Positions 1-31,570 are shown, numbered from the stretch's first letter. The stretch is DNA of 32,000 nucleotides from Ktedonobacterales bacterium (GCA_030167145.1 CP126532.1:2580001-2612000); one strand, 5' to 3'. The notes: generated from the sequence alone by a model not told the origin. Numbers and translations: made by a program.

Positions 1-1
1 G

Positions 2-325
2 GGGAAGCGCGCCTGCCTCAGTCTCTGCCGCAGCCCGCACGCCTTCATTGCGGATAGCGGACCAGCGCCATCACACACGGCTTGGCGGCTCGGCATCTGG
101 CACGGAGCCGCCTCCGTCGGCTGTTGCTGGGCGCTGATGCTGGTCATGTTCGGCATCGGCGTCGGCAATCTCGTCTGGATGGCGGGCCTGACCTGCCTCA
201 TGGCCAGCGAGACAACCCTTCCCACGAATAGATGGATGAGCCGCGCTATCGGCATCACCTCACTCGTGCTCGCGCTGCTGTGGCTGGCGCATCCCGCCTG
301 GCTCGTGCCCGCCACCGTCTCCTGA
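2..325 (+). CDS. DUF2182-family predicted metal-binding integral membrane protein, C-terminal part (5' end outside window)
   Basis: The frame is open from base 2. Translation GKRACLSLCRSPHAFI...GIWHGAASVGCCWALMLVMFGIGVGNLVWMAGLTCLMASE shows the Cys-x3-Cys-RSP and GCCW-x-LM motifs plus hydrophobic helices that I associate with DUF2182. Stop at 323-325. Confidence 0.55.
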   Translation, partial: GKRACLSLCRSPHAFIADSGPAPSHTAWRLGIWHGAASVGCCWALMLVMFGIGVGNLVWMAGLTCLMASETTLPTNRWMSRAIGITSLVLALLWLAHPAWLVPATVS

Positions 326-335
326 TACCACCCGG

Positions 336-977
336 CTACGACGCCACCACATCGAACCGGCAGCGCGATGACGTGCCCCGCTCACAATGCTCGCAGACCG
401 CGACACCACTGATTGTGCTGATGAACATTTCCGTCATCCGGCACACCTCCGCATGGCCGTTGACCACCGCCGCGAGTGGGCAGCTAGCTCCGCGAATGGA
501 AAGCTGATTGTCCTCCTCCACGACCTCCGCCAGCCCGCCGAGTTCGTTCAGCGCCTCCGCCGCCACGACGAGACGGCTGCGTGTATCGCTGCCCTCCGTG
601 GCCGCGTCCATCTCATCGGCAATGCGCCGCCCCGCCTCACGCGCGGCGGCGTCGAGGTCGTCTTGTCCGAGCCGCTCACCAAGCACCGCCAGAAGTTGGC
701 GCAGCACGTGGTCGTAGGATTTCGGGAAGAGCAGATCCGCGTCCGCCGTCAGCCGGTATTCTTGCGACGGTTTGCGGCTGCCGCTGGTCCACCGCTGGCC
801 CGCCTCGCACACCAGCCCATCGCGTTCCAGCAGCACCAGTTGCGTGCGAATCGCGTTATTCGTCAGATCCAGCGCCTGCGCGAGATCGTCAACGGTGGCG
901 GCCTGGCGGCGAAGATACTGCAACATCCGGCCACGTGTCGTGGTGAAGAAACGCCGATCCCACGTGGTAGCCGGCAT
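336..977 (-). CDS. ArsR-type winged-helix transcriptional regulator with Cys-rich C-terminal domain
   Basis: MPATTWDRRFFTTTRGRMLQYLRRQAATVDDLAQALDLTNNAIRTQLVLLERDGLV is a typical ArsR/COG2345-like HTH. The C-terminal part has CPLAAV..HAEVC..CEHC..C. ATG at 977-975 is preceded by AAAGGAG. The longer track ORF start at 1070 lies upstream of that RBS and is rejected. Confidence 0.7.
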   Translation of the reverse strand: MPATTWDRRFFTTTRGRMLQYLRRQAATVDDLAQALDLTNNAIRTQLVLLERDGLVCEAGQRWTSGSRKPSQEYRLTADADLLFPKSYDHVLRQLLAVLGERLGQDDLDAAAREAGRRIADEMDAATEGSDTRSRLVVAAEALNELGGLAEVVEEDNQLSIRGASCPLAAVVNGHAEVCRMTEMFISTISGVAVCEHCERGTSSRCRFDVVAS

Positions 978-1036
978 GTCGCTCGCTCCTTTCGCTCTGC
1001 TCACCCATAGCTCGCCCGAGTCTCGCGCTCTTTTTG

Positions 1037-1066
1037 AGCATAGCCAGCCCCATTCGCTGATGTCAA
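1037..1066 (-). promoter_or_regulatory. Predicted sigma70-type promoter for the ArsR-type gene
   Basis: On the minus strand: TTGACA (1066-1061), an 18-nt spacer, then TATGCT (1042-1037), about 60 nt upstream of the ATG at 977. Confidence 0.4.
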
Positions 1067-1305
1067 GCAAATCAAGGAATTCATGCGAATGCTGTATCAG
1101 TGCGCTCTAGCCTCCACACTACGGCGTCCCTCCGCTGGGTCTCCACCTCGCGTTCCCAATCCCGCGTCCGTATCCGCCCCTCTTTGTCCGCATGTGCCCG
1201 TATCTGCCGCCTTGCCATACCCGAACATCAGTTCTACACTGCTCACTGGGGAACGGCAGACCAGATCACACAACTTCACACGATTCGCGAACGGAGACGA
1301 CCAGC

Positions 1306-2628
1306 ATGGGCAAGCGCAACAACGGCAACAACCGCAACAACCGCAACACTACAAAACATCACACTGGCAGCAATCCACTCCCCTCGCCTCGTAGGAGAGG
1401 GGCCGGGGGTGAGGTCTCTCTCTTTCCGCCCGGCGAGCCGCTGCGCCCCAGCGCTGGCCTCACCGGCGCGCAGGGCGAGCCGCGCCAGTGGGCCTATCCC
1501 GTCGGCTACAACATCGCCCAGCTTCCGCGCGCCACCGAACAAACCAGCTTCGCAGAGCTACGCAACCTCGCCGCCCTCTACGACGGAATCCAGCTCTGCG
1601 AGCGCGTCTACTTCGACCTCCTCGGGCGCCTCGAACCGCGTGTGCTGCCACGGCCAGACGCCCTCGCCCCAGGCGACACCGGCGCCGAGCCGCGCTGGCG
1701 CGAACCCGCCCGCCGCATCGAGGCCTTCCTCGAAAGCCCCGACCACGCCCAAGATCTGCGCTCCTGGCTCGTCGCCTTCGTCCGCGATCTGCTCGAAATT
1801 GACGCCGTCGCCATCTACACCCGGCGCACCCGCGGCGGCGCGCTTCACGCCCTCGAACTCGTCGCCGCCGACAGCATCAAGCCGCTCATCAACCCTGACG
1901 GGCGCACCCCACAGCCGCCACAGCCCGCCTATCAGCAATACCTCTACGGCGTGCCCGCTGGCTGGTACACCCGCGACGACCTCGACTACCTCCGCGAGAC
2001 CGCCCGCACCGACAGCCTCTACGGCCTCTCGCGCGTCGAGCGCATCATCCTGCGCGTCAACCAGGCGCTACGCAAACAAAGCTTCGATCTCGCCCGCTTC
2101 ACCGACGGCGCTACCCCGCTCGGCATCATCGAGCCGCCCACCACCCTCGCCTGGACCCCTGAACAGCTTGAAACCTTCGAGCGCGCCTTCAACGGCCTCC
2201 TCGCTGGCAACGACGCCTGGCGTGTCCGCGCCAAAACCCTCCCACCGGGCGCACACTGGCAGGCGCTCACCGGCGACGATCCGCTCATCGCATTCGACCG
2301 CTTCCTGCTCAACGTCACTGTCGCCGCCTTCGGCCTCACCATGGACGAACTCGGCTTCACCGACACCAGCAACCGCAGCACCGGCCAAACGCAAGAAAGC
2401 GTCGTCTATCGCCGCGCCGTCGCACCCGTCGCCGCCCTTGCCGCCAGTTACCTCACCCGCAAGATCCGCCACTGGCTCGACCCACGCTTCACCGTCACCT
2501 TCACCGGCCTCGAAGAACCCGACGACTTCGCCACCCGCGCCAACGCCTTCGCCCAGCTCATCCCCCTCGGCGTCGTCACCCCCACCACCGCCGCGCGGCT
2601 GCTCCATCTCCCCGCTCCCGGCGCCTAG
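1306..2628 (+). CDS. Phage portal-like protein (orphan), 440 aa
   Basis: Long high-GC3 ORF. The segments LYGLSRVERIILRVNQALRKQSFDLARFTDGATPLGIIEPP...WTPEQLETFERAFNGLLAG...FDRFLLNVTVAAFGLTMDELGF...STGQTQESVVYRR match the general pattern I know from HK97/SPP1-type portal proteins. ATG at 1306 follows GGAGA. The N-terminal ~60 codons are low complexity (NNGNNRNNRN) and run through a repeat element, so the start is uncertain. Confidence 0.55.
   Translation: MGKRNNGNNRNNRNTTKHHTGSNPLPSPRRRGAGGEVSLFPPGEPLRPSAGLTGAQGEPRQWAYPVGYNIAQLPRATEQTSFAELRNLAALYDGIQLCERVYFDLLGRLEPRVLPRPDALAPGDTGAEPRWREPARRIEAFLESPDHAQDLRSWLVAFVRDLLEIDAVAIYTRRTRGGALHALELVAADSIKPLINPDGRTPQPPQPAYQQYLYGVPAGWYTRDDLDYLRETARTDSLYGLSRVERIILRVNQALRKQSFDLARFTDGATPLGIIEPPTTLAWTPEQLETFERAFNGLLAGNDAWRVRAKTLPPGAHWQALTGDDPLIAFDRFLLNVTVAAFGLTMDELGFTDTSNRSTGQTQESVVYRRAVAPVAALAASYLTRKIRHWLDPRFTVTFTGLEEPDDFATRANAFAQLIPLGVVTPTTAARLLHLPAPGA
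1378..1420. repeat. C-rich/G-rich hairpin element followed by GGGGGTGAG (copy 1)
   Basis: ctCCCCTCgcctcgtagGAGAGGGGccgggggtgaggtctctc. The same architecture occurs in reverse orientation at 29071-29120. Confidence 0.5.
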
Positions 2629-2695
2629 CCCGTGCGCACCTCCACTGCCCACCACCCCATTCGCCCCACTGTGCCGCTGGCATCCCGCCAGCCCT

Positions 2696-3270
2696 TCAGT
2701 GGGGCGGACATTCTTGTCTGCCCTCCATCTCTGTGGTGGGGCGGACATTCTTGTCTGCTCATGGCCGCGAAATCGGCAGAATCGGCAACTGCTCATCACA
2801 CACATGCGCGCGAAAATCGGCAGAATCGGCAACTGCCCTTCGTGTGTACAACACACAATTGCGGCGAAAACGGCGAAAATCTATCTGCCACCACCCATCT
2901 CTACCTCCACGATCCGCTCTGCATCGGATTACCCTCGGCTCTTCAGGCCGAGAACCCGCTTTACCACCCAGCTCGCTCTACGCGCAAATCAAAATATCGG
3001 CCATTTCGGCCACTGCCTGTGAGGAGGCAAGCCGTGCGCCATCTCAACCGAAAAATCGGCAGAATCGGCAACTCTGGCAACTGGTGGGACAGACATTCTT
3101 GTCTGTCCGCAATCGAAATACCGGCCACTCCGGCCATCGGCGATTTTGTGCAACTTCCAAATTTCGGCAGAATCGGCAACTGCCATTGCGTGCAACCTGG
3201 ACATTCATGCCCATCCCACCTGTGCTCCGGCCACTTATGGCCGAGAGCGCGGCCATTTCGGCCACTACCC
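2696..3270. repeat. Non-coding repeat cluster R1: 9-bp-periodic direct-repeat dimers plus three copies of a GACATTCTTGTC hairpin
   Basis: AAATCGGCAGAATCGGCAACTGC occurs at 2771-2793, 2815-2837, 3054-3076 and 3161-3183. ATCGGCCATTTCGGCCACTRC occurs at 2996-3017 and 3251-3269. CCGGCCACTCCGGCCATCGG occurs at 3122-3141. Hairpins GGGCGGACA-TTCT-TGTCTGCCC lie at 2703-2724, 2740-2761 and 3088-3109. The ORFs across this tract are repeat artefacts. Confidence 0.8.
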
Positions 3271-3284
3271 ACCGCCCACCTCAC

Positions 3285-3560
3285 TTATCCACATCTTGGC
3301 GACTTATCCACAATCCCTGTGGACACCCACCCGCCCGCTTATGTAGACCTCATTCCCACAAAAGTCCGGGGAAGTGTGACCGCTCCAGCGTGGATAAACA
3401 CCCGATTTCTGTGGACAAGTACCCCTGATTGTGCAAAACTCCGCCAATTTCGTAGAACAAGAGTTCCTCTGCCGTATCGCCTCTCGCGGCGCATTTTCGG
3501 TGGATAACCCGGTGGATAAATGGTGCCGAATGTGGATAACTCACACCCACCCGTGGACAG
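3285..3560. promoter_or_regulatory. DnaA-box cluster 1 (9 boxes in 276 bp)
   Basis: Perfect TTATCCACA at 3285-3293 and 3304-3312. Perfect complement TGTGGATAA at 3531-3539. Boxes with 1-2 mismatches: TGTGGACAC 3318-3326, CGTGGATAA 3389-3397, TGTGGACAA 3410-3418, GGTGGATAA 3499-3507 and 3511-3519, CGTGGACAG 3552-3560. Confidence 0.8.
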
Positions 3561-3578
3561 CCAGACTTCCCTACTTGC

Positions 3579-3959
3579 TCATCCACCGAACGAAGCGGCG
3601 GCCTCCGCGATCAGCACGGAGACAGCAGAGAGATCAAACGGAACGCCAAGCACCGCTACCGCAAGTTCCTCAAGCAACGCCCGCTCCTCCTCACGCGGTG
3701 AACTGTAGTAGATGGCAATGTAGCGATGCTCCCCATAGCGCACGTGGTCCGCCGCGAGGGCAGCAAGGGTATGTTTCAGGGTGAATTGCAAGGCGCCGCT
3801 GTCCAGAATAGTTACGATGGGGTGCAGGCTCGAGCGCAGCGCCATCAAAGCCGCCTCTGCGGACTGGGCGACGGTGACCGAATGCCCCTCATCAACACAC
3901 GACATTTCGAGCACATTCGTCATGGCTTCATCGTCGCTATAGATCAGCACATGCGCCAT
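3579..3959 (-). CDS. Stand-alone receiver (REC/CheY-like) domain protein, degenerate
   Basis: MAHVLIYSDDEAMTNVLEMSCVDEGHSVTVAQSAEAALMALRSSLHPIVTILD follows the REC beta1-alpha1-beta2-alpha2-beta3 pattern, with the acidic pair (DDE) and an Asp at the phospho-acceptor position (ILD). The conserved Lys-Pro is replaced by Val-Pro (LGVPFD). ATG at 3959 is preceded by GAGGAGGG. The track start at 3983 would include that RBS. Confidence 0.5.
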   Translation of the reverse strand: MAHVLIYSDDEAMTNVLEMSCVDEGHSVTVAQSAEAALMALRSSLHPIVTILDSGALQFTLKHTLAALAADHVRYGEHRYIAIYYSSPREEERALLEELAVAVLGVPFDLSAVSVLIAEAAASFGG

Positions 3960-4007
3960 CGCATCTACCCTCCTCACCCACACCTATGCGGCTTTCCTCC
4001 CTACACC

Positions 4008-4481
4008 CTACATCGGCGTCCCACCGGTCGGGCCACCGCCCGTCGCCGCGCCCGCCACTGGCACATCATGCACCCGGAAGGGCCAGCGCTTCGCCGCCTC
4101 ATCCCCATCAATCGAAGCCACCACCCGATAGCCGCCCGCGTGCGGAAACGGCACATCCAGCGGAAACCCCAGCATCACCGGCTGCGCCGCGCCCTGCGGC
4201 AACTGCGGAGGACGCCCCACATTGATATGTCCCTCGATCTTCACCAACGGATTCCCATCCTCATCCTCGATCAACACCGTCAGCACGTGCGGGCGATTCG
4301 TCTCATTCCACGGCACGAACACGCACACCCCAATGCCCAGGTGGCTTGGCAGCGGTGCGCCGCCTGGCGGCAAAGGCCGCCGGTGATCCGTCCATCCCCC
4401 ACCGCTCACATACAGCAATCCATTGACCACCTCGACATGATTCGCCAGCACCAGCGAATCTACCGTCACCGTATCCGTCAT
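4008..4481 (-). CDS. Hypothetical protein, 157 aa (conserved-looking, beta-rich, Gly/Pro tail)
   Basis: MTDTVTVDSLVLANHVEVVNGLLYVSGGGW...GYRVVASIDGDEAAKRWPFRVHDV. ATG at 4481 is preceded by GGGAGG at 8 nt. High GC3. It lies 48 bp upstream of the REC-like gene on the same strand. I cannot name the family with confidence. Confidence 0.5.
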   Translation of the reverse strand: MTDTVTVDSLVLANHVEVVNGLLYVSGGGWTDHRRPLPPGGAPLPSHLGIGVCVFVPWNETNRPHVLTVLIEDEDGNPLVKIEGHINVGRPPQLPQGAAQPVMLGFPLDVPFPHAGGYRVVASIDGDEAAKRWPFRVHDVPVAGAATGGGPTGGTPM

Positions 4482-4667
4482 CACCTGCGCCTCCCGCGCG
4501 CCGCACACGCGCCCGTTCTCACTCGCTCGCTCGTTGCCCCATTTCATTGCCCCCATTAACGCACATCTCAGCACGTAAGCAGGCACAGACCGCGACATCA
4601 CCCCACAGGCGCACAGACATAGACCAAACCACCGCCCACACTCAGCAAAATAGCCAGCCAACACGCA

Positions 4668-4697
4668 TTGACAAGCAACGCATATTCAGCATAGGAT
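4668..4697 (+). promoter_or_regulatory. Predicted sigma70-type promoter for the 4745 gene
   Basis: TTGACA at 4668-4673, an 18-nt spacer, then TAGGAT at 4692-4697. Confidence 0.4.
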
Positions 4698-4744
4698 GTG
4701 CGTCATGATTGTATCGTGCCAAGATGGAAAAGGAGCGGCATACC

Positions 4745-5254
4745 ATGTGGCAACCTGACTCACTTTCCCCGTATGCGGAAGTCCCCGCGCCTCCACGGCG
4801 TCCACACGCGCGCCGCCGCCTGCGCGGCGTAGTCCTTGCCTTTCTTGGCCTCATCGTTCTCGGCGGCGCGGTCGGCGTCGGTTTCGTGCTCTCGCGCCCC
4901 CTTCTGCGGCACAACCTGCCCGACAACGTCCCCCTTCTCGCCAACACCAGCTTCGTCACCTACACCGATACCCACCAATCCGGCTTGCACGAACAATACT
5001 GGTATTACACCGTCTCCAATAGCACCCTTCAGCAAGTCACGAGTTACTACGTTACCCAACTGTCCGTGAATGACTGGCAGAACGTGAACATTACCAACGT
5101 CGCCGTCACCCCCAACATCACCGCCACCAGGGACGACGGCGCCACCACCATCTACATCCTCGCCAGCCAGCAACCCCTCACTGCCCAGGGCATCACCGTC
5201 ACCCCGCCCGCCGGCGGCATCGCCCTGGAGATCGCCATCGTCACCAAGACCTGA
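4745..5254 (+). CDS. Single-pass membrane protein, hypothetical (169 aa)
   Basis: MWQPDSLSPYAEVPAPPRRPHARRRLRGVVLAFLGLIVLGGAVGVGFVL has a basic stretch followed by one TM helix, then an extracytoplasmic domain. GGAG at 4732-4735 lies 9 nt before the ATG at 4745. The track start at 4709 is a TTG. Confidence 0.55.
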   Translation: MWQPDSLSPYAEVPAPPRRPHARRRLRGVVLAFLGLIVLGGAVGVGFVLSRPLLRHNLPDNVPLLANTSFVTYTDTHQSGLHEQYWYYTVSNSTLQQVTSYYVTQLSVNDWQNVNITNVAVTPNITATRDDGATTIYILASQQPLTAQGITVTPPAGGIALEIAIVTKT

Positions 5255-5308
5255 TACGCGGTAGTACGCGACAGTACGCGACAGCACACTGTCACATTCC
5301 CTTGTCAA

Positions 5309-5682
5309 CTATCCACAATCCTGTGGATAGCACTGTAGATACCTGGTCGAAAACGCGCGTCAGTGCTAGAGCGCTATCCACATGCCAGTAGATAACCCGG
5401 TGGATGCCGCTGTGGACGGCCTGGGGACGGTGTGGAAACTCTCAAGTCCCATCCACCAGCCGTGTGGATGGCGTCGTGGACAGCCTGGGGACGATGTGGA
5501 GAAGCTGAAACACTTGTCCACATCCATCCACCAGCGGCCTCCAGTTATCCGAGCGATACACCAGCGTCATCCACAATCCACAGCCTGTTTCCACATCGTG
5601 GATAATCCATACAACTCTAGGATTGATGCGACCTTGCACCGCCAATTTTTGCCGGTGGCGTTAGTTATCCCCGCCATCCACA
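5309..5682. promoter_or_regulatory. DnaA-box cluster 2 (at least 12 good boxes plus weaker ones in 374 bp)
   Basis: CTATCCACA 5309-5317 and TGTGGATAG 5322-5330 form a perfect palindromic pair. Further boxes: CTATCCACA 5374-5382, TGTGGACGG 5411-5419, TGTGGAAAC 5431-5439, TGTGGATGG 5463-5471, CGTGGACAG 5475-5483, TGTGGAGAA 5495-5503, TTGTCCACA 5514-5522, TCATCCACA 5567-5575, CGTGGATAA 5597-5605, CCATCCACA 5674-5682. Weaker TGTGGAAA-type sites continue to about 5860. Confidence 0.8.
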
Positions 5683-6137
5683 CCCCCTATGACGATCTGC
5701 TACGGTTTCTCTCCTCTTCTTCAATTAAATGAAAGAGATGGGTATCTTCCACATACCTGTGTTCACATTAGCATTGCCATGTGGAAAGTTCGCGTTGCTC
5801 GATCTTGCTCCGGTAGATGCCACCACACGTTGCGTGGAAACAACGTTCCCACGGCCTATCCCCCAAAGACATGCAGTGTTCCTGCTGCCCAAAAGGGGCA
5901 TACCCGCATACGACGTAGCCAAAACATGGTACAGTTCGTTTGAACTCCATGAAGCATTCTTGACGCGCTGATGGCCGCAATGGTGGATGGGCGAAAAATG
6001 GATGGGGCGGCCATTCAGAGCGCCACAAGGGCAAGAGTCATGCAGCGTGAGAGTTCGCGGATGAGCTGCTTCAGGTGGTAGCGCGGTATGCAATGTGCGA
6101 ATTGCGCGAGCATGGCAGGGCGAGAGCGTATCCCCGT

Positions 6138-6166
6138 TTGACACAAGCCGATACGCATGCTATGCT
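6138..6166 (+). promoter_or_regulatory. Near-consensus sigma70 promoter with extended -10
   Basis: TTGACA at 6138-6143, a 17-nt spacer ending in TGC, then TATGCT at 6161-6166. No convincing ORF follows for about 770 nt, until the rho start at 6942. Confidence 0.5.
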
Positions 6167-6941
6167 TTCGTTAGCGCCAGCCGAATGCGCGCACTTCACA
6201 CACCTGTAGCGGTACGTTGTGCATGGTTGCCCGCGACGATTTCATCCAGCCGCCAGAGATGCGGCGTCGGATCTGGCGCAACGGAGCGTACTCTTAACAC
6301 ACCTGACGGCACGAATGGAGCCTGGCCGACAACGGCGGGCCTTACCAAAGGCAATTTCCAGGCATCCCATGGCTTCTCTGACGTGTGGGGAGGATGTCCA
6401 TTAGAGGAACGTGTGCGCACGCTGATCGCGATCTGCTCGCACGTATGAGCATCAGGCGCGGCGCATATCGAAACCTCGGCGCACATGCTGGTGGTAGACG
6501 CGCACTGTGTGGCCGTTGCCTACTTGTTGAGAATTTTTGAGTTTTTTCCAAGACGATGTGTATCTTTCGCGCTACTCCACCGCCCCGTGTTCGCGTATGC
6601 GCGCCTCAGGCGCGCTCGTAGGGAGTTCGCCCGGTGGATGCGCTTTCAGGAAGCGCCGTTGATGTTGATGCGGATCGCCGTCGCTGAGCCAGCGTGCCGC
6701 GGCGTGCATCCAGACCGCGATTTGCGGCGCATGACCTGATGTTATGGTCTGATGAAGGCGATTGTTTGCTTATGCTGAGTACCGCACGACAGTACAGCCG
6801 TGCGACTACGCGCTACTTTTCGCGATGTTCCGCGCTATGCGGTTGGTCCAGTGTATTGTGCTTTCCCATCGGGAGCGCTGGCGATCAGGCCAGCGCGACC
6901 CGGCTCGTATTCCGCATTGTTTGTTAACGCAGGAGGCCAGT

Positions 6942-9599
<2,658 letters not shown>

Positions 9600-29156: not shown

Positions 29157-30172
29157 GGGAGTTGTGCTAGTTCGTTGAGTTGACAAGAACGCCTCGGTTG
29201 GCTACAAGGGAACAAACTACACCGTTCCGTTGGGACCGACCGAGGTGATGTGGATGATACGCGATTTTGACGACTTCTGCACGTGGATGTATGTGCTCAT
29301 TAGCGACCTGTTCGTTGCGATTGCTCCGCTGGTCGCACGCCCCGGCCCGCTGCCGGTCTGCACCGATGCCGAACTGATCACGATGGCAATCGTCGGCGAA
29401 TGTGCTGGCTGGGACCAGGAGACCGTTCTCCTGAGCCGCTGGCAGGACCATCGCGACCTGTTTCCGCACCAGCCCGAACGCAGCCGCTTCAATCGCCGTC
29501 GGCGTGATCTGGCACCGGCCATCAACCTGGTGCGTCAAGCCGTCGTACAGGTGCTGGATCTCGCCCAGGACTCGCACTGTATCATCGATAGTCTGCCCAT
29601 CCCCGTGGTGCAGTTCTATTACGTGCCCCAGGCCAACTCCGACTGGAAGGCGGCAGGCGCCACCTTTGGCCATTGCTGCTCCAAGAAGCAGGCCATCTTT
29701 GGCTATAAACTGCATCTGCTGATCACCCAAGGCGGCGTCATTCGCGACTTCGCGCTGGCGCCCGCGCATGTCACCGACCGCGAAGTCGCCGGCGAATTGC
29801 TCCATGACCATACCCACCTGCTCGTACTCGCCGATAAAGGCTATATCAGCCACTCCCTGGCGGCTGACCTGCGCGCCGAGCGCCACCTCGCCCTTGTGAC
29901 CATCCCGCGCAGCAATCAGCGGGTGCAGCCCTCGGCGGCGTTTCGCCACCTCCATGCGCATCTGCGCCAACTGATCGAGACGGTCAATAGCCAATTAGCC
30001 CTCCAGTTCCCTATCGAGACCAACCATGCCCATAGCTTCTGGGGGCTGACCGCGCGGCTCTACACCAAACTGGCCGCCCATACCCTCTGTCTCTGGCTCA
30101 ATCGCCTGCTCGGGGTGGCTGAGGTCTTACATCTCAAGACGCTCGCCTTCCCCAACATCTAGCACAACTCCC
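29157..30172 (+). mobile_element. IS982-family insertion sequence (1016 bp)
   Basis: Perfect 14-bp terminal inverted repeats GGGAGTTGTGCTAG (29157-29170) and CTAGCACAACTCCC (30159-30172). Flanked by the direct repeat AACTT (29152-29156 and 30173-30177). A single transposase ORF ends inside the right repeat. Confidence 0.85.
29248..30162 (+). CDS. IS982-family DDE transposase
   Basis: DDFCTWM...CTDAELITMAIVGE...DSLPIPVVQFY...FGYKLHLLITQGGVIRDFALAPAHVTDREV...LLVLADKGYIS...IETVNSQL is typical of the IS982/DDE_Tnp_1-like family. The start is ATG 29248 or ATG 29254 (GAGGTG just upstream). The track start at 29230 is a TTG. Confidence 0.8.
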   Translation: MWMIRDFDDFCTWMYVLISDLFVAIAPLVARPGPLPVCTDAELITMAIVGECAGWDQETVLLSRWQDHRDLFPHQPERSRFNRRRRDLAPAINLVRQAVVQVLDLAQDSHCIIDSLPIPVVQFYYVPQANSDWKAAGATFGHCCSKKQAIFGYKLHLLITQGGVIRDFALAPAHVTDREVAGELLHDHTHLLVLADKGYISHSLAADLRAERHLALVTIPRSNQRVQPSAAFRHLHAHLRQLIETVNSQLALQFPIETNHAHSFWGLTARLYTKLAAHTLCLWLNRLLGVAEVLHLKTLAFPNI

Positions 30173-30220
30173 AACTTAATCGGGTAATGGTAGACTGACC
30201 TCCAAAAAGGAGGTGTGCAG

Positions 30221-31271
30221 ATGCGTCAACGTCGCTTGGCCCTGACAGCGGGGCAACGTCGCGAGTTAGTACAGATGCGTGACCGTGATCGTCGCGCCTA
30301 TTTGCGGGAACGGGCCGCCGCGCTGCTCAAAATCGCGGAGGGCCGCTCGGTACGAGCGGTCGCCCTCCGCGGGCTGCACCGCCGCCGCAAGCCTGACACG
30401 GTCTATGGCTGGCTCAATGCCTACCTGACCGGTGGCGTGGCGGCGCTGGTGCAGCGTGCGCGCGGCCACCGGGGTTTTTCCCCCTCAGCAGGGGCGCGAA
30501 TTGCTCCAGGTGCTGCACCAAGCGCCTGAACGCTTTGCCGTGGCGCGTGCGCGCTGGCGGTTGGTGGACTTGCGGCAGGTGCTTCCCTGGTTAGCGCACT
30601 ACACCTTAGCCGGGATCTGGCGCGCCTTGCGGCGGCTGGGGGGTCGCACCAAACGCGGACGGCTCAGTGTCCACAGTCCCGATCCGCACTACGCTGAGAA
30701 GTGCTTTGCCATTGAGCAGGTCTGTGCGCTGGCCCAGCAGCAGCCGCAGCGGGTGCGGGTGTTCTACGGCGACGAATTCAGCCTGTATCGCCAGCCGAGC
30801 CTGGCGGCGCGCTTTGCGCCGCGTGGGCACCGGCCCAAGGCGCGGCTCGCACCCCGCGCCACCACCCGCTACCGCGTCAGTGGGGCGCTGGATGTCGTCA
30901 GTGGCCAGGTGCACTACACCACCGGCGCCAAGATGGGGGTCAAGGGCCTCTGCGCCTTCCTGGCGCAGTTGCGCGCCCGCTCCCCCCACCACCGGCTGGT
31001 CCTGATCTGGGACAACTGGCCGGTCCACCAGCACCCCGATGTGCTCGCCCAAGCCGCGGCGTTACACATTCGGCTCCTCTGGCTGCCGACCTATGCGCCT
31101 TGGACCAATCCGATCGAAAAGCTCTGGCGCTGGCTCAAGCAGACGCTGCTGCATCACCACCGTCTCGCCGACCGCTGGGACGACTTGAAAGGCGCGGCGC
31201 TCGCCTTTCTCGACCAGTTCGCCACCGACTCATCGGCGCTCCTGCGCTATGTTGGCCTATTACCCGATTAA
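30221..31271 (+). pseudogene. IS630-family transposase, split into two frames (+1 shift at a G4T5C5 tract)
   Basis: The first frame (30221-30529) encodes an HTH region (RELVQMRDRDRRAYLRERAAALLKIAEGRSVRAVA..., GWLNAYLTGGVAAL). The +1 frame, from about 30480 to 31271, encodes the DDE_3 core (VFYGDEFSL...IWDNWPVHQ...LPTYAPWTNPIEKLWRWLK). Skipping one base in 30471-30484 gives a continuous ~349-aa protein (...RGHRGFPPQQGRELLQVL...). ATG at 30221 is preceded by AAGGAGGTG. Confidence 0.75.
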
Positions 31272-31299
31272 GTTGTAAAACTGCATTATGGCCGACGCA

Positions 31300-31570
31300 C
31301 AAGGGTAGTGGCATGAATGCCAGAGTGGCCGATGTAGCCGATATTCCCGGAAGGCAGACAGGAATGTTTGCCCTATGAGGGCAGTGGCCGGAGTGGCCGA
31401 TTTTTGACTTGGCGGGATGGATATGGCCGAAATGGCCGATTTTGCAATACGTGCATGATGCAGTTGCCGGAGTTGCCAGCGAGACGCTGGCGCTCCATGC
31501 GCGAGTGGCCGAAATGGCCGAAATGGCCGAAATGGCCGATGTGGCTGATTTGGCTGATTTGGTTGATGGT
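31300..31570. repeat. Non-coding repeat cluster R2: the same 9-bp-periodic family as R1, in reverse-complement orientation, including a 7-unit tandem array
   Basis: 7 x 9 bp at 31506-31568: TGGCCGAAA x3, TGGCCGATG, TGGCTGATT x2, TGGTTGATG. Dimers: TGGCCGATGTAGCCGATA 31326-31343, TGGCCGGAGTGGCCGATT 31385-31402, TGGCCGAAATGGCCGATT 31424-31441, TTGCCGGAGTTGCCAGCG 31464-31481. Hairpin GGCAGACA-GGAA-TGTTTGCC at 31353-31372. Palindrome TGGCATGAATGCCA at 31309-31322. Confidence 0.8.

What the first reader, a model, noticed from the sequence alone, without database searches (positions are those of the whole stretch)
3285..3560. DnaA-box cluster 1: three perfect and six near-perfect boxes in 276 bp, no dnaA nearby
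TTATCCACA is the canonical high-affinity DnaA box. Here it occurs perfectly twice in tandem (3285, 3304) and once as the complement (3531), with six further 1-2 mismatch boxes. The first pair, TTATCCACAATCCCTGTGGACA, forms a converging box pair. The same arrangement recurs at 5309-5330. Such density is expected for oriC, a DnaA-titration locus (datA-like), a DnaA-reactivating site, or a plasmid/phage origin. It is not expected for ordinary DnaA-regulated promoters. No dnaA, dnaN, gidA or parAB gene is in the window.
Basis: partly seen in the sequence, partly recalled or inferred. Interest (0 to 1): 0.8.

Follow-up and report, generated by a model that had tools for sequence, protein, structure and literature searches.

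The report
Split chromosome replication origin far from dnaA
The DnaA-box cluster is real and is the left half of the chromosome replication origin of an uncultured Ktedonobacterales bacterium; the origin is not next to dnaA and is cut in two here by three inserted genes, an uncommon layout of a well-known element.

Summary
Positions 3285-3539 hold 3 perfect, 4 one-mismatch and 2 two-mismatch TTATCCACA boxes; 0.06 perfect boxes are expected in the whole window.

In five related Ktedonobacterales genomes the same boxes recur in the same order and spacing. Box columns are 82% identical and spacer columns 27%.

Cluster 1 is only half of the element. Cluster 2 (5309-5682) ends in two abutting co-oriented boxes, a GC cluster, CTATGACGA and the most AT-rich stretch of the origin region. 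That 28-nt module, searched in public metagenomes, lies in or beside the dnaA-dnaN gap in 54 of the 80 loci listed. It is therefore the canonical oriC unwinding module.

No dnaA or dnaN lies within -9.7 to +32 kb.

In at least four relatives clusters 1 and 2 form one ~700-bp origin. Here 1.75 kb carrying three genes separates them. Another relative has ~7 kb of different genes at the same junction.

GC skew has origin polarity (-0.2 to the left, +0.16 at 0.8 Mb to the right). The element sits at 51% of a 5.07-Mb contig.

Verdict: the distal DnaA-assembly half of a dnaA-orphaned, split oriC (confidence ~0.78). The position of dnaA on the contig, and function, remain untested. Interest is moderate.

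The parts
3285..3539 (.). Cluster 1, the target of the finding: nine DnaA boxes. They are 3285+ and 3304+ (perfect), 3318- (2 mismatches; converges on 3304), 3389- and 3410- (21 bp apart), 3430- (2 mismatches), then 3499-, 3511- and 3531- (12 and 20 bp apart; 3531 is perfect). Interpreted as the distal DnaA-assembly array of oriC.
   Evidence: Searches give counts against shuffles. Alignment A1 with L005, L007, L008, L010 and L019 shows that the invariant columns are the boxes. Box columns are 82% identical and other columns 27%. The same order and spacing occur in L079, L087 and L101.
3561..5365 (.). Insertion that splits the origin. It has no counterpart in L005, L007, L079 or L101. It also carries the extra box pair at 5309-5330.
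   Evidence: Junction comparison with L005, L079 and L087. The break lies after the weak box at 3551-3559 and before the ATCCACA box at 5374.
3579..3959 (-). Cargo gene p134 (126 aa as called by JGI). It looks like a degenerate receiver (CheY-like) domain with no DNA-binding domain.
   Evidence: ORF and translation and JGI call. The only Pfam hit is weak, to the REC-like PDE8A_N. A 36% identical homolog lies 1 kb upstream of cluster 2 in L003.
4008..4547 (-). Cargo gene of family DUF6941 (179 aa).
   Evidence: Pfam PF22091, E 2.6e-15. JGI call. A 65% identical homolog lies upstream of cluster 2 in L130.
4724..5254 (+). Cargo gene p181 (176 aa as called by JGI); hypothetical protein with an N-terminal membrane anchor.
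   Evidence: No Pfam family. Promoter-like site at 4668-4697.
5309..5682 (.). Cluster 2: about 15 DnaA boxes with up to 2 mismatches, most of them degenerate GTGGA/TCCAC cores. This is the proximal DnaA-assembly array of oriC.
   Evidence: Alignment A2 with L005, L007, L003 and L009 shows invariant TCCAC/GTGGA cores.
5665..5695 (+). Unwinding module (BUS-type). It consists of tandem abutting boxes TTATCCCCG and CCATCCACA, a GC cluster CCCC(C), and CTA TGA CGA. On the bottom strand these read 3'-GAT ACT GCT-5', which are DnaA-trio-like.
   Evidence: Identical architecture in L003, L005, L007, L009 and L012. The pattern found 89 metagenome stretches, of which 80 loci were listed. In 54 of these it lies next to dnaA and/or dnaN; 37 show both genes flanking it. 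Definition of the BUS taken from PMC8287927.
5696..5760 (.). Pyrimidine-rich, AT-rich stretch; the presumed DNA-unwinding element.
   Evidence: It is 65% AT against a 41% regional mean. Within 2600-6800 only a stretch in the rho leader (~6520, 68% AT) is higher. In all five relatives the AT peak of the region lies at the same place, 20-60 bp after the module.
6138..6166 (+). rho promoter (TTGACA, 17 nt, TG-TATGCT). It marks the right boundary of the origin region.
   Evidence: The motif is conserved in L007 and L008.
6942..9599 (+). rho gene with a long disordered N-terminal extension. The start is at 6942 by homology with L008, or at 7368 in the JGI call. It is the right-hand neighbour of the origin.
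   Evidence: Pfam ATP-synt_ab and Rho_RNA_bind.
1306..2628 (+). Solitary phage-portal-like gene (NCBI tag OJF49_002474). It is the left-hand neighbour of the origin in this sub-lineage.
   Evidence: Pfam PF04860. Homologs sit directly left of cluster 1 in L005, L079 and L087.
2630..3280 (+). Non-coding block of dispersed repeats between the portal gene and cluster 1. It is not part of the origin proper.
   Evidence: The same repeat family occurs at 31290-31560(-). In L005 only 135 bp separate the portal gene from the first box.

Best explanation
Cluster 1 is the distal DnaA-box array of the chromosomal replication origin (oriC) of an uncultured Ktedonobacterales (Chloroflexota) bacterium.

The complete origin is cluster 1 (3285-3539), cluster 2 (5309-5682), a canonical unwinding module (5665-5695) and an AT-rich stretch (5696-5760). 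It lies between a solitary portal-like gene and the rho promoter, and not next to dnaA-dnaN.

Proposed mechanism, inferred from the established oriC model. DnaA-ATP fills the strong boxes of cluster 1 and the many weak boxes of cluster 2. The two co-oriented boxes at 5665-5682 anchor a DnaA oligomer that extends onto the adjoining trio-like repeats and opens the AT-rich stretch for helicase loading.

In this genome a 1.75-kb, three-gene insertion separates the two arrays. If cluster 1 still contributes, it must do so through a DNA loop, as in the bipartite origins of Bacillus subtilis and Helicobacter pylori.

Shown here: the anatomy, purifying selection on the boxes, homology of the unwinding module with modules in the dnaA-dnaN gap of many bacteria, and the absence of dnaA and dnaN nearby.

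Inferred, not shown: DnaA binding, unwinding, looping, and that this is the only active origin.
For: 1. Box density is far above chance.

2. Phylogenetic footprint. In six genomes the boxes of cluster 1 are invariant islands, 82% identical against 27% in the spacers, with conserved order, orientation and spacing. Cluster 2 behaves likewise.

3. Cluster 2 ends in TTATCCCCGCCATCCACA-CCCC-CTATGACGA followed by the regional AT peak. The same is true in five relatives.

4. The pattern TTATCCNCNNNNTCCACAN{1,2}CCCTAYGA found 89 metagenome stretches, of which 80 loci were listed, with GC from 24 to 74%. In 54 of them the module lies next to dnaA and/or dnaN. In 37 both genes flank it, 36 of them in the order dnaA(+), module, dnaN(+), with dnaN 70-600 bp downstream. 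That is the classical place of the oriC basal unwinding system (PMC8287927; PMC7561715).

5. Clusters 1 and 2 are contiguous (~700 bp) in L005, L007, L079 and L101, so they form one element.

6. GC skew has origin polarity. It is about -0.2 over the 15 kb to the left, changes at the element, and is +0.156 at 0.8 Mb to the right on the same contig.

7. The element lies at 50.96% of a 5,069,600-bp contig. Linear chromosomes occur in this class (PMC13289182).

8. There are no viral or plasmid matches.
Against: - The position of dnaA on the contig is unknown, so a second box cluster next to dnaA cannot be excluded.
- Published Ktedonobacteria chromosomes carry dnaA/dnaN together with parA/parB. 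None of these genes is near this element.
- Immediately right of the element the skew is only about 0 for 26 kb rather than positive. Relatives show no clear skew switch at the 10-kb scale.
- The strict criterion of three consecutive A-centred trios within 16 bp is not met. The trios are GAT, ACT, GCT, that is one A-centred and two C-centred.
- L008, L010 and L019 keep cluster 1 but have no unwinding module within 21 kb.
- About 30 other Ktedonobacterales rho loci, and three portal loci, have no boxes at all. The location is therefore lineage-specific.
- No experiment was done.
Confidence: 0.78

Rival explanations
1. Cluster 1 is an autonomous DnaA-binding locus: a DnaA sink or regulator like E. 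coli datA or the B. subtilis DnaA-box clusters. It merely lies near the true origin (cluster 2 plus the unwinding module) and is not needed for initiation.
For: L008, L010 and L019 conserve cluster 1 upstream of rho but have no cluster 2 and no unwinding module within 21 kb. Cluster 1 tolerates separation from cluster 2 by 1.75 kb here and by ~7 kb in L087/L168/L169.
Against: Cluster 1 directly abuts cluster 2 in L005, L007, L079 and L101. Distal box clusters of bipartite origins also work at kilobase distances (PMC6669920). No feature specific to datA, such as an IHF site, could be tested.
Confidence: 0.12
2. The boxes are operators through which DnaA controls transcription of rho or of the p134/DUF6941 operon.
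For: In L008-type genomes cluster 1 ends about 180 bp upstream of the conserved rho promoter. DnaA is a known transcription factor (established knowledge).
Against: Here cluster 1 lies 2.6 kb from the rho promoter, with three genes and cluster 2 in between. Nine to 25 boxes plus an unwinding module are far more than any known DnaA-regulated promoter has. The boxes do not overlap the promoter-like sites.
Confidence: 0.04
3. It is the origin of a secondary replicon (chromid or megaplasmid) or of a prophage, not of the main chromosome.
For: A portal-like gene adjoins it. Ktedonobacteria carry 1.6-3.5 Mb chromid-like replicons that lack Rep initiators and could use DnaA (PMC13289182).
Against: The contig is 5.07 Mb, within the size range of Ktedonobacteria chromosomes, and carries rho and a MutS-family gene next to the element. 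The portal gene is solitary and has no other phage genes around it. The module has 0 hits in viral contigs and cluster 1 has 0 in plasmids.
Confidence: 0.04
4. It is a decaying relic of a former origin, and the active origin is elsewhere, for example at dnaA.
For: The origin is interrupted by an insertion. The trios are imperfect. The right-hand GC skew is weak.
Against: The boxes stay invariant while the spacers are saturated with changes across genomes whose neighbouring portal proteins are only ~70% identical. That pattern means ongoing selection. The split arrangement was recovered in two assemblies from different samples of another lineage.
Confidence: 0.05

Closest known systems
Basal unwinding system (BUS) of bacterial oriC, defined in Bacillus subtilis incC: DnaA-boxes 6/7, GC cluster, DnaA-trios and an AT-rich region (Richardson 2016/2019; Pelliciari 2021, PMC8287927)
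   Same: Two co-oriented boxes, with the upstream one closer to consensus. A 4-5 nt GC cluster follows, then trinucleotide repeats starting with GAT on the strand that carries TGTGGATAA, then an AT-rich stretch. The 28-nt module is shared with 54 metagenome loci where it lies in or beside the dnaA-dnaN gap.
   Different: The module is not flanked by dnaA and dnaN. Only the first trio is A-centred (GAT, ACT, GCT). C-centred trios are common in the dnaA-linked hits too, and in B. subtilis strand-separation assays C could replace A at the centre of the first trio (PMC10721633).
Bipartite origins: B. subtilis incAB/incC, Helicobacter pylori oriC1/oriC2, Clostridioides difficile oriC1/oriC2
   Same: Two DnaA-box clusters separated by kilobases of coding DNA. 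Only one of them carries the unwinding module.
   Different: In those species the spacer is the dnaA gene itself and is fixed. Here the spacer is unrelated, variable cargo: none, 1.75 kb or ~7 kb in different genomes. The undivided form occurs in close relatives.
Origins not next to dnaA: Escherichia coli oriC (gidA-mioC) and Caulobacter Cori (hemE)
   Same: A DnaA-box origin separated from the dnaA gene.
   Different: The flanking genes differ (portal-like gene and rho). This origin keeps the ancestral-type tandem-box/trio module, which scores weakly in E. coli (PMC8287927).
E. coli datA, DARS1/2 and the B. subtilis DnaA-box clusters
   Same: A dense cluster of DnaA boxes away from dnaA.
   Different: Those loci have no unwinding module and lie far from oriC. 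Cluster 1 is contiguous with an unwinding-competent array in relatives. The cluster-1-only state in L008-type genomes is the one respect in which it resembles them.

Membership tests
Bacterial chromosomal origin oriC (in silico criteria of Ori-Finder/DoriC) | A cluster of DnaA boxes well above the genomic background | tested here: met
   There are 14 boxes with up to 1 mismatch in two clusters, against 2.6 expected in the whole 32-kb window. There are 27 boxes with up to 2 mismatches in 3285-3539 plus 5309-5788.
Bacterial chromosomal origin oriC (in silico criteria of Ori-Finder/DoriC) | A switch of strand composition (GC-skew or Z-curve extremum) at the site | tested here: inconclusive
   Skew is -0.2 over the 15 kb to the left, about 0 for 26 kb to the right, and +0.156 at +0.8 Mb. 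The polarity fits an origin.
Bacterial chromosomal origin oriC (in silico criteria of Ori-Finder/DoriC) | An adjacent indicator gene (dnaA, dnaN, gidA, parAB, hemE ...) | tested here: not met
   No DnaA or DnaN by tblastn in the window, its left extension or the related loci. No such Pfam family was found. This feature is auxiliary rather than obligatory; E. coli oriC, for example, is not next to dnaA.
Bacterial chromosomal origin oriC | Replication initiates here in vivo, or the fragment replicates autonomously | not testable with these tools
   This needs marker-frequency analysis, DnaA ChIP or an oriC-plasmid assay.
Basal unwinding system (BUS; PMC8287927) | A DnaA box with at most 2 mismatches plus a second co-oriented box with at most 4 mismatches, in tandem | tested here: met
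   TTATCCCCG (5665-5673, 2 mismatches) abuts CCATCCACA (5674-5682, 2 mismatches), both on the + strand. The pair is conserved in five relatives.
Basal unwinding system (BUS; PMC8287927) | At least three consecutive trios 3'-NAN-5' starting within 16 bp of the box, on the strand that carries TGTGGATAA | tested here: inconclusive
   Read by eye. The frame starting at 5687 gives GAT ACT GCT, one A-centred and two C-centred trios. The frame starting at 5697 gives GAC GAT GCC. Four A-centred trios (GAG GAG AAG AAG) begin only 28 nt after the box. The strict rule is not met. The same CTA-YGA start is shared with 54 dnaA/dnaN-linked modules. In B. subtilis strand-separation assays C could replace A at the centre of the first trio.
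Basal unwinding system (BUS; PMC8287927) | A GC-rich spacer, then an AT-rich unwinding region distal to the trios | tested here: met
   CCCCC at 5683-5687. Positions 5690-5760 are 60-65% AT against a 41% regional mean. The AT peak lies at the same place in L003, L005, L007, L009 and L012.
Bipartite oriC | Two box clusters separated by a gene or genes, both needed for initiation | tested here: inconclusive
   Separation by 1.75 kb carrying three genes is shown. Whether cluster 1 is required is not testable here. The spacer is not dnaA.
datA-type DnaA-inactivating or titrating locus | A box cluster with an IHF site that promotes DnaA-ATP hydrolysis, with no unwinding element, located away from oriC | tested here: not met
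   Cluster 1 is 1.75 kb from an unwinding-competent array here, and contiguous with it in four relatives. IHF binding and ATP hydrolysis are not testable.
Plasmid or phage replication origin | A Rep or initiator gene, iterons, and a mobile-element context | tested here: not met
   No Rep family was found in the window. The repeats at 2630-3280 belong to a dispersed family that also occurs at 31.3 kb, and they are absent in L005. There are 0 viral and 0 plasmid matches. The contig is 5.07 Mb.

The most novel reading that the evidence does not exclude
In this Ktedonobacterales lineage the chromosome origin has three unusual properties.
- It is detached from dnaA-dnaN.
- It sits near the centre of what may be a linear chromosome.
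- The junction between its DnaA-assembly array (cluster 1) and its unwinding half (cluster 2 plus BUS) repeatedly accepts kilobases of unrelated gene cargo: 0, 1.75 or ~7 kb in different genomes.

This would be a natural bipartite origin without dnaA as spacer. It would imply long-range DnaA looping as a general, insertion-tolerant property.

In addition, cluster 1 persists alone upstream of rho in other genomes. That hints at a second, origin-independent role, such as DnaA titration or coupling of rho expression to initiation.
Probability: 0.25. Interest if true: 0.6.

Novelty: new variant of a known kind. Interest (0 to 1): 0.42.

Why it matters
- It locates the replication origin of a little-studied, actinomycete-like Chloroflexota lineage, and shows that the origin is not where dnaA-based annotation would place it.
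- A single 28-nt module (two boxes, GC cluster, CTAYGA) retrieves canonical dnaA-dnaN origins from bacteria with 24-74% GC. It is a practical probe for orphan origins in metagenome-assembled genomes.
- The series of relatives with 0, 1.75 and ~7 kb between the two halves is a natural experiment. It bears on how far apart the DnaA-assembly and unwinding parts of an origin can be.
- It also gives candidates for testing DNA looping at origins outside the Firmicutes and Helicobacter.

Tried and rejected
- **Iterons.** I first took the repeats at 2630-3280 for origin iterons. I rejected this because the same family occurs at 31290-31560(-), just downstream of an IS630-family transposase gene, and is absent at the homologous place in L005.
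- **GC skew in relatives.** Left-versus-right skew in eight related loci and eleven control loci showed no consistent switch at the 10-kb scale.
- **Finding dnaA on the source contig.** This was not possible. Look-ups are limited to window proteins and their homologs.
- **Sampling the contig through transposase paralogs.** Two protein searches (IS982, IS630) and two look-ups found no further copy on the contig. Only the portal paralog gave a distant sampling point.
- **Extending the window to the right.** This returned only a 10-kb Logan contig.
- **parS.** No match to the consensus.
- **Rfam.** No family in the window.
- **Literature on a Ktedonobacteria oriC.** Nothing specific was found. 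The 2026 mSystems paper used Ori-Finder but gives no positions in the text or supplements held.
- **Trio frame.** My first reading of the trios used the wrong frame. I corrected it against the C. difficile example and the metagenome hits.
- **Portal-oriC and rho-oriC linkage as general rules.** Both were rejected. L162, L166 and L167 have the portal gene without boxes, and about 30 rho loci have none.

Full report
**The observation**

Perfect TTATCCACA occurs at 3285(+), 3304(+) and 3531(-), against 0.06 expected in the whole window. Allowing one mismatch gives 17 boxes in 32 kb against 2.6 expected. Seven lie in 3285-3539 and seven in 5309-5605. The head-to-head pair at 3304-3326 recurs at 5309-5330.

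**Gene context**

From left to right the window carries:
- an ArsR-type regulator (336-1070, -);
- a solitary phage-portal-like gene (1306-2628, +);
- a 650-bp non-coding repeat block;
- cluster 1;
- three small genes: p134 (3579-3959, -), DUF6941 (4008-4547, -) and p181 (4724-5254, +);
- cluster 2;
- an AT-rich stretch;
- a promoter at 6138-6166;
- rho with a long N-terminal extension, followed by Ser/Thr kinases, a MutS-family gene and ordinary metabolic genes.

The window is positions 2,580,001-2,612,000 of a 5,069,600-bp JGI contig, Ga0494333_323. The same sequence exists as an NCBI Ktedonobacterales MAG with OJF49_ locus tags.

No dnaA or dnaN lies in the window, in 9.7 kb of left extension, or in 1.25 Mb of related loci. 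They are validated because they hit other loci at E about 1e-130.

**Comparison with relatives**

A scan of species-representative genomes with the Rho C-terminal domain returned 67 loci. About 40 of these are from Ktedonobacterales.

A subset carries a DnaA-box cluster upstream of rho with the same box order, orientation and spacing as cluster 1. The pattern is +,+ at 19 bp; -,- at 21 bp; and -,-,- at 12 and 20 bp. It occurs in L005, L007, L008, L010 and L019.

In the alignment the invariant columns are the boxes, while the spacers have diverged to random level. Box columns are 82% identical and other columns 27%. This is the signature of selection on DnaA binding sites.

Cluster 2 aligns in the same way with L005, L007, L003 and L009.

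**The unwinding module**

Cluster 2 ends in TTATCCCCG-CCATCCACA-CCCC-CTATGACGA (5665-5695). The same module is present in L003, L005, L007, L009 and L012.

Immediately after it comes an AT-rich stretch: 65% AT at 5700-5760 against a 41% regional mean. Within 2600-6800 only a stretch in the rho leader near 6520 is higher (68%). In all five relatives the AT peak lies at the same position after the module.

I searched the pattern TTATCCNCNNNNTCCACAN{1,2}CCCTAYGA in public metagenome contigs. It gave 89 stretches, of which 80 loci were listed, with GC from 24 to 74%.
- In 54 of the 80 the module lies next to dnaA and/or dnaN.
- In 37 both genes flank it, 36 of them in the order dnaA(+), module, dnaN(+). 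dnaN starts 70-600 bp downstream, mostly 150-290 bp.
- Two further loci carry the portal homolog and so are Ktedonobacterales.

That position and architecture define the oriC basal unwinding system: tandem boxes, a GC cluster, DnaA-trios and an AT-rich DNA-unwinding element (PMC8287927; PMC7561715).

Read on the strand that carries TGTGGATAA, the typical hits give 3'-GAT ACT GAT GAT GAT-5'. The window gives GAT ACT GCT. The strict rule of three A-centred trios is therefore not met. However, the element is homologous to bona fide dnaA-linked modules. In B. subtilis strand-separation assays, C could replace A at the centre of the first trio (PMC10721633).

**One origin, split here**

In L005, L007, L079 and L101, clusters 1 and 2 form a single ~700-bp array.

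In the window, 1.75 kb carrying three genes lies between them.

In L087 about 7 kb of unrelated genes lies at the same junction. These include YjbQ, a cupredoxin, a GNAT and a glycosyltransferase-like protein. The same arrangement appears in L168 and L169, two assemblies from different samples. In both the window and L087 the break falls between the last boxes of cluster 1 and the first ATCCAC box of cluster 2.

L130 has a DUF6941 homolog, and L003 a p134 homolog, beside cluster 2. No integrase or transposase is present in the cargo.

The repeats at 2630-3280 belong to a dispersed family that also occurs at 31.3 kb. They are absent in L005, so they are not iterons.

**Strand composition and position on the contig**

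GC skew is -0.10 to -0.28 over the 15 kb left of the unwinding module, on genes of both orientations. It rises to about 0 for the next 26 kb.

A 21-kb sample 0.8 Mb to the right on the same contig has +0.156, and every 2-kb bin is positive.

The polarity, negative on the left and positive on the right, is that of an origin and not of a terminus. I therefore rate this evidence as supportive only.

The element lies at 50.96% of the contig. Putatively linear chromosomes with terminal inverted repeats are reported in this class (PMC13289182). A central origin would fit such a chromosome, but the topology of this contig is unknown.

**Rival explanations**

- A plasmid or phage origin is not supported. 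The module has no match in viral contigs and cluster 1 has none in plasmid records. There is no Rep gene, the portal gene is solitary, and the replicon is 5.07 Mb.
- A DnaA-regulated promoter is unlikely, given 9-25 boxes plus an unwinding module.
- The serious rival concerns cluster 1 only. In L008, L010 and L019 a clear cluster 1 homolog lies about 180 bp upstream of the rho promoter, with no cluster 2 and no unwinding module within 21 kb. Cluster 1 may therefore have, or have acquired, a role of its own, such as DnaA titration or rho control. I cannot resolve this.
- About 30 other Ktedonobacterales rho loci and three portal loci have no boxes. The position of the origin is therefore specific to a sub-lineage.

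**Verdict**

The finding is real. It is best explained as the distal DnaA-assembly half of a chromosomal oriC that is detached from dnaA and split by a gene insertion (confidence about 0.78).

An origin away from dnaA and a bipartite origin are both known. A bipartite origin whose spacer is variable non-dnaA cargo is a new variant.

Function, the position of dnaA, and the need for cluster 1 remain untested.

Noticed in passing
window 1306-2628 (+); paralog at record 3,380,718-3,382,076 of the same contig (L161 10001-11359): A solitary Phage_portal gene sits directly left of the origin, with no other phage genes around it. Homologs that are 64-81% identical over the aligned part occur in more than 100 Ktedonobacterales protein clusters. 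The same genome has a 76% identical paralog inside a capsid/terminase cluster. The solitary copy looks like a conserved, possibly domesticated gene.
   Followed up: partly
window 2630-3280 (+) and 31290-31560 (-): A dispersed non-coding repeat family built from the units CGGCCATTTCGGCCAC, ATCGGCAGAATCGGCAAC and GGACATTCTTGTCTG. One block lies between the portal gene and cluster 1. The other lies just downstream of an IS630-family transposase gene. The block is absent at the homologous site in L005.
   Followed up: partly
record 2.570-2.586 Mb (L164 1-14000; window 1-5700): Unusually strong negative GC skew (-0.12 to -0.27) over about 15 kb, although most genes there are on the + strand. The coding strand is therefore C-rich. 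The skew ends at the origin.
   Followed up: partly
L008 6775-7060, L010 6948-7230, L019 5841-6135: A cluster 1 homolog stands alone upstream of the rho promoter, with no cluster 2 and no unwinding module within 21 kb. In L008 a tRNA-like sequence (by eye; no tRNA scan was run on this locus) lies directly to the left (about 6553-6625).
   Followed up: partly
window 6138-6941: rho has a conserved promoter (TTGACA, 17 nt, TATGCT) and a leader of about 0.8 kb (1.2 kb under the JGI start). The promoter motif is also present in L007 and L008. The long leader may serve autoregulation by attenuation. No Rfam family matches.
   Followed up: no
L003 912-2333 (+): A fusion of an Mrr_cat restriction-endonuclease domain with a ParA/MinD-type ATPase (AAA_31/CbiA) lies about 2.6 kb upstream of that genome's origin.
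   Followed up: no
L101 154-1908 (-): A DarT/Macro (DarTG) toxin-antitoxin pair lies about 2.3 kb left of an orphan origin of the same family. DarT ADP-ribosylates thymidine in single-stranded DNA.
   Followed up: no
L132 and L139 (metagenome loci): In these two loci the tandem-box/CTAYGA module is inverted relative to the adjacent gene(s): dnaN in both, and dnaA too in L139. This differs from the other 52 dnaA/dnaN-linked loci.
   Followed up: no
window 29254-31271: Adjacent IS982-family and IS630-family transposase genes. Both appear single-copy in this genome as far as the protein index shows. A PIN/DUF433 toxin-antitoxin pair follows at the window end.
   Followed up: partly
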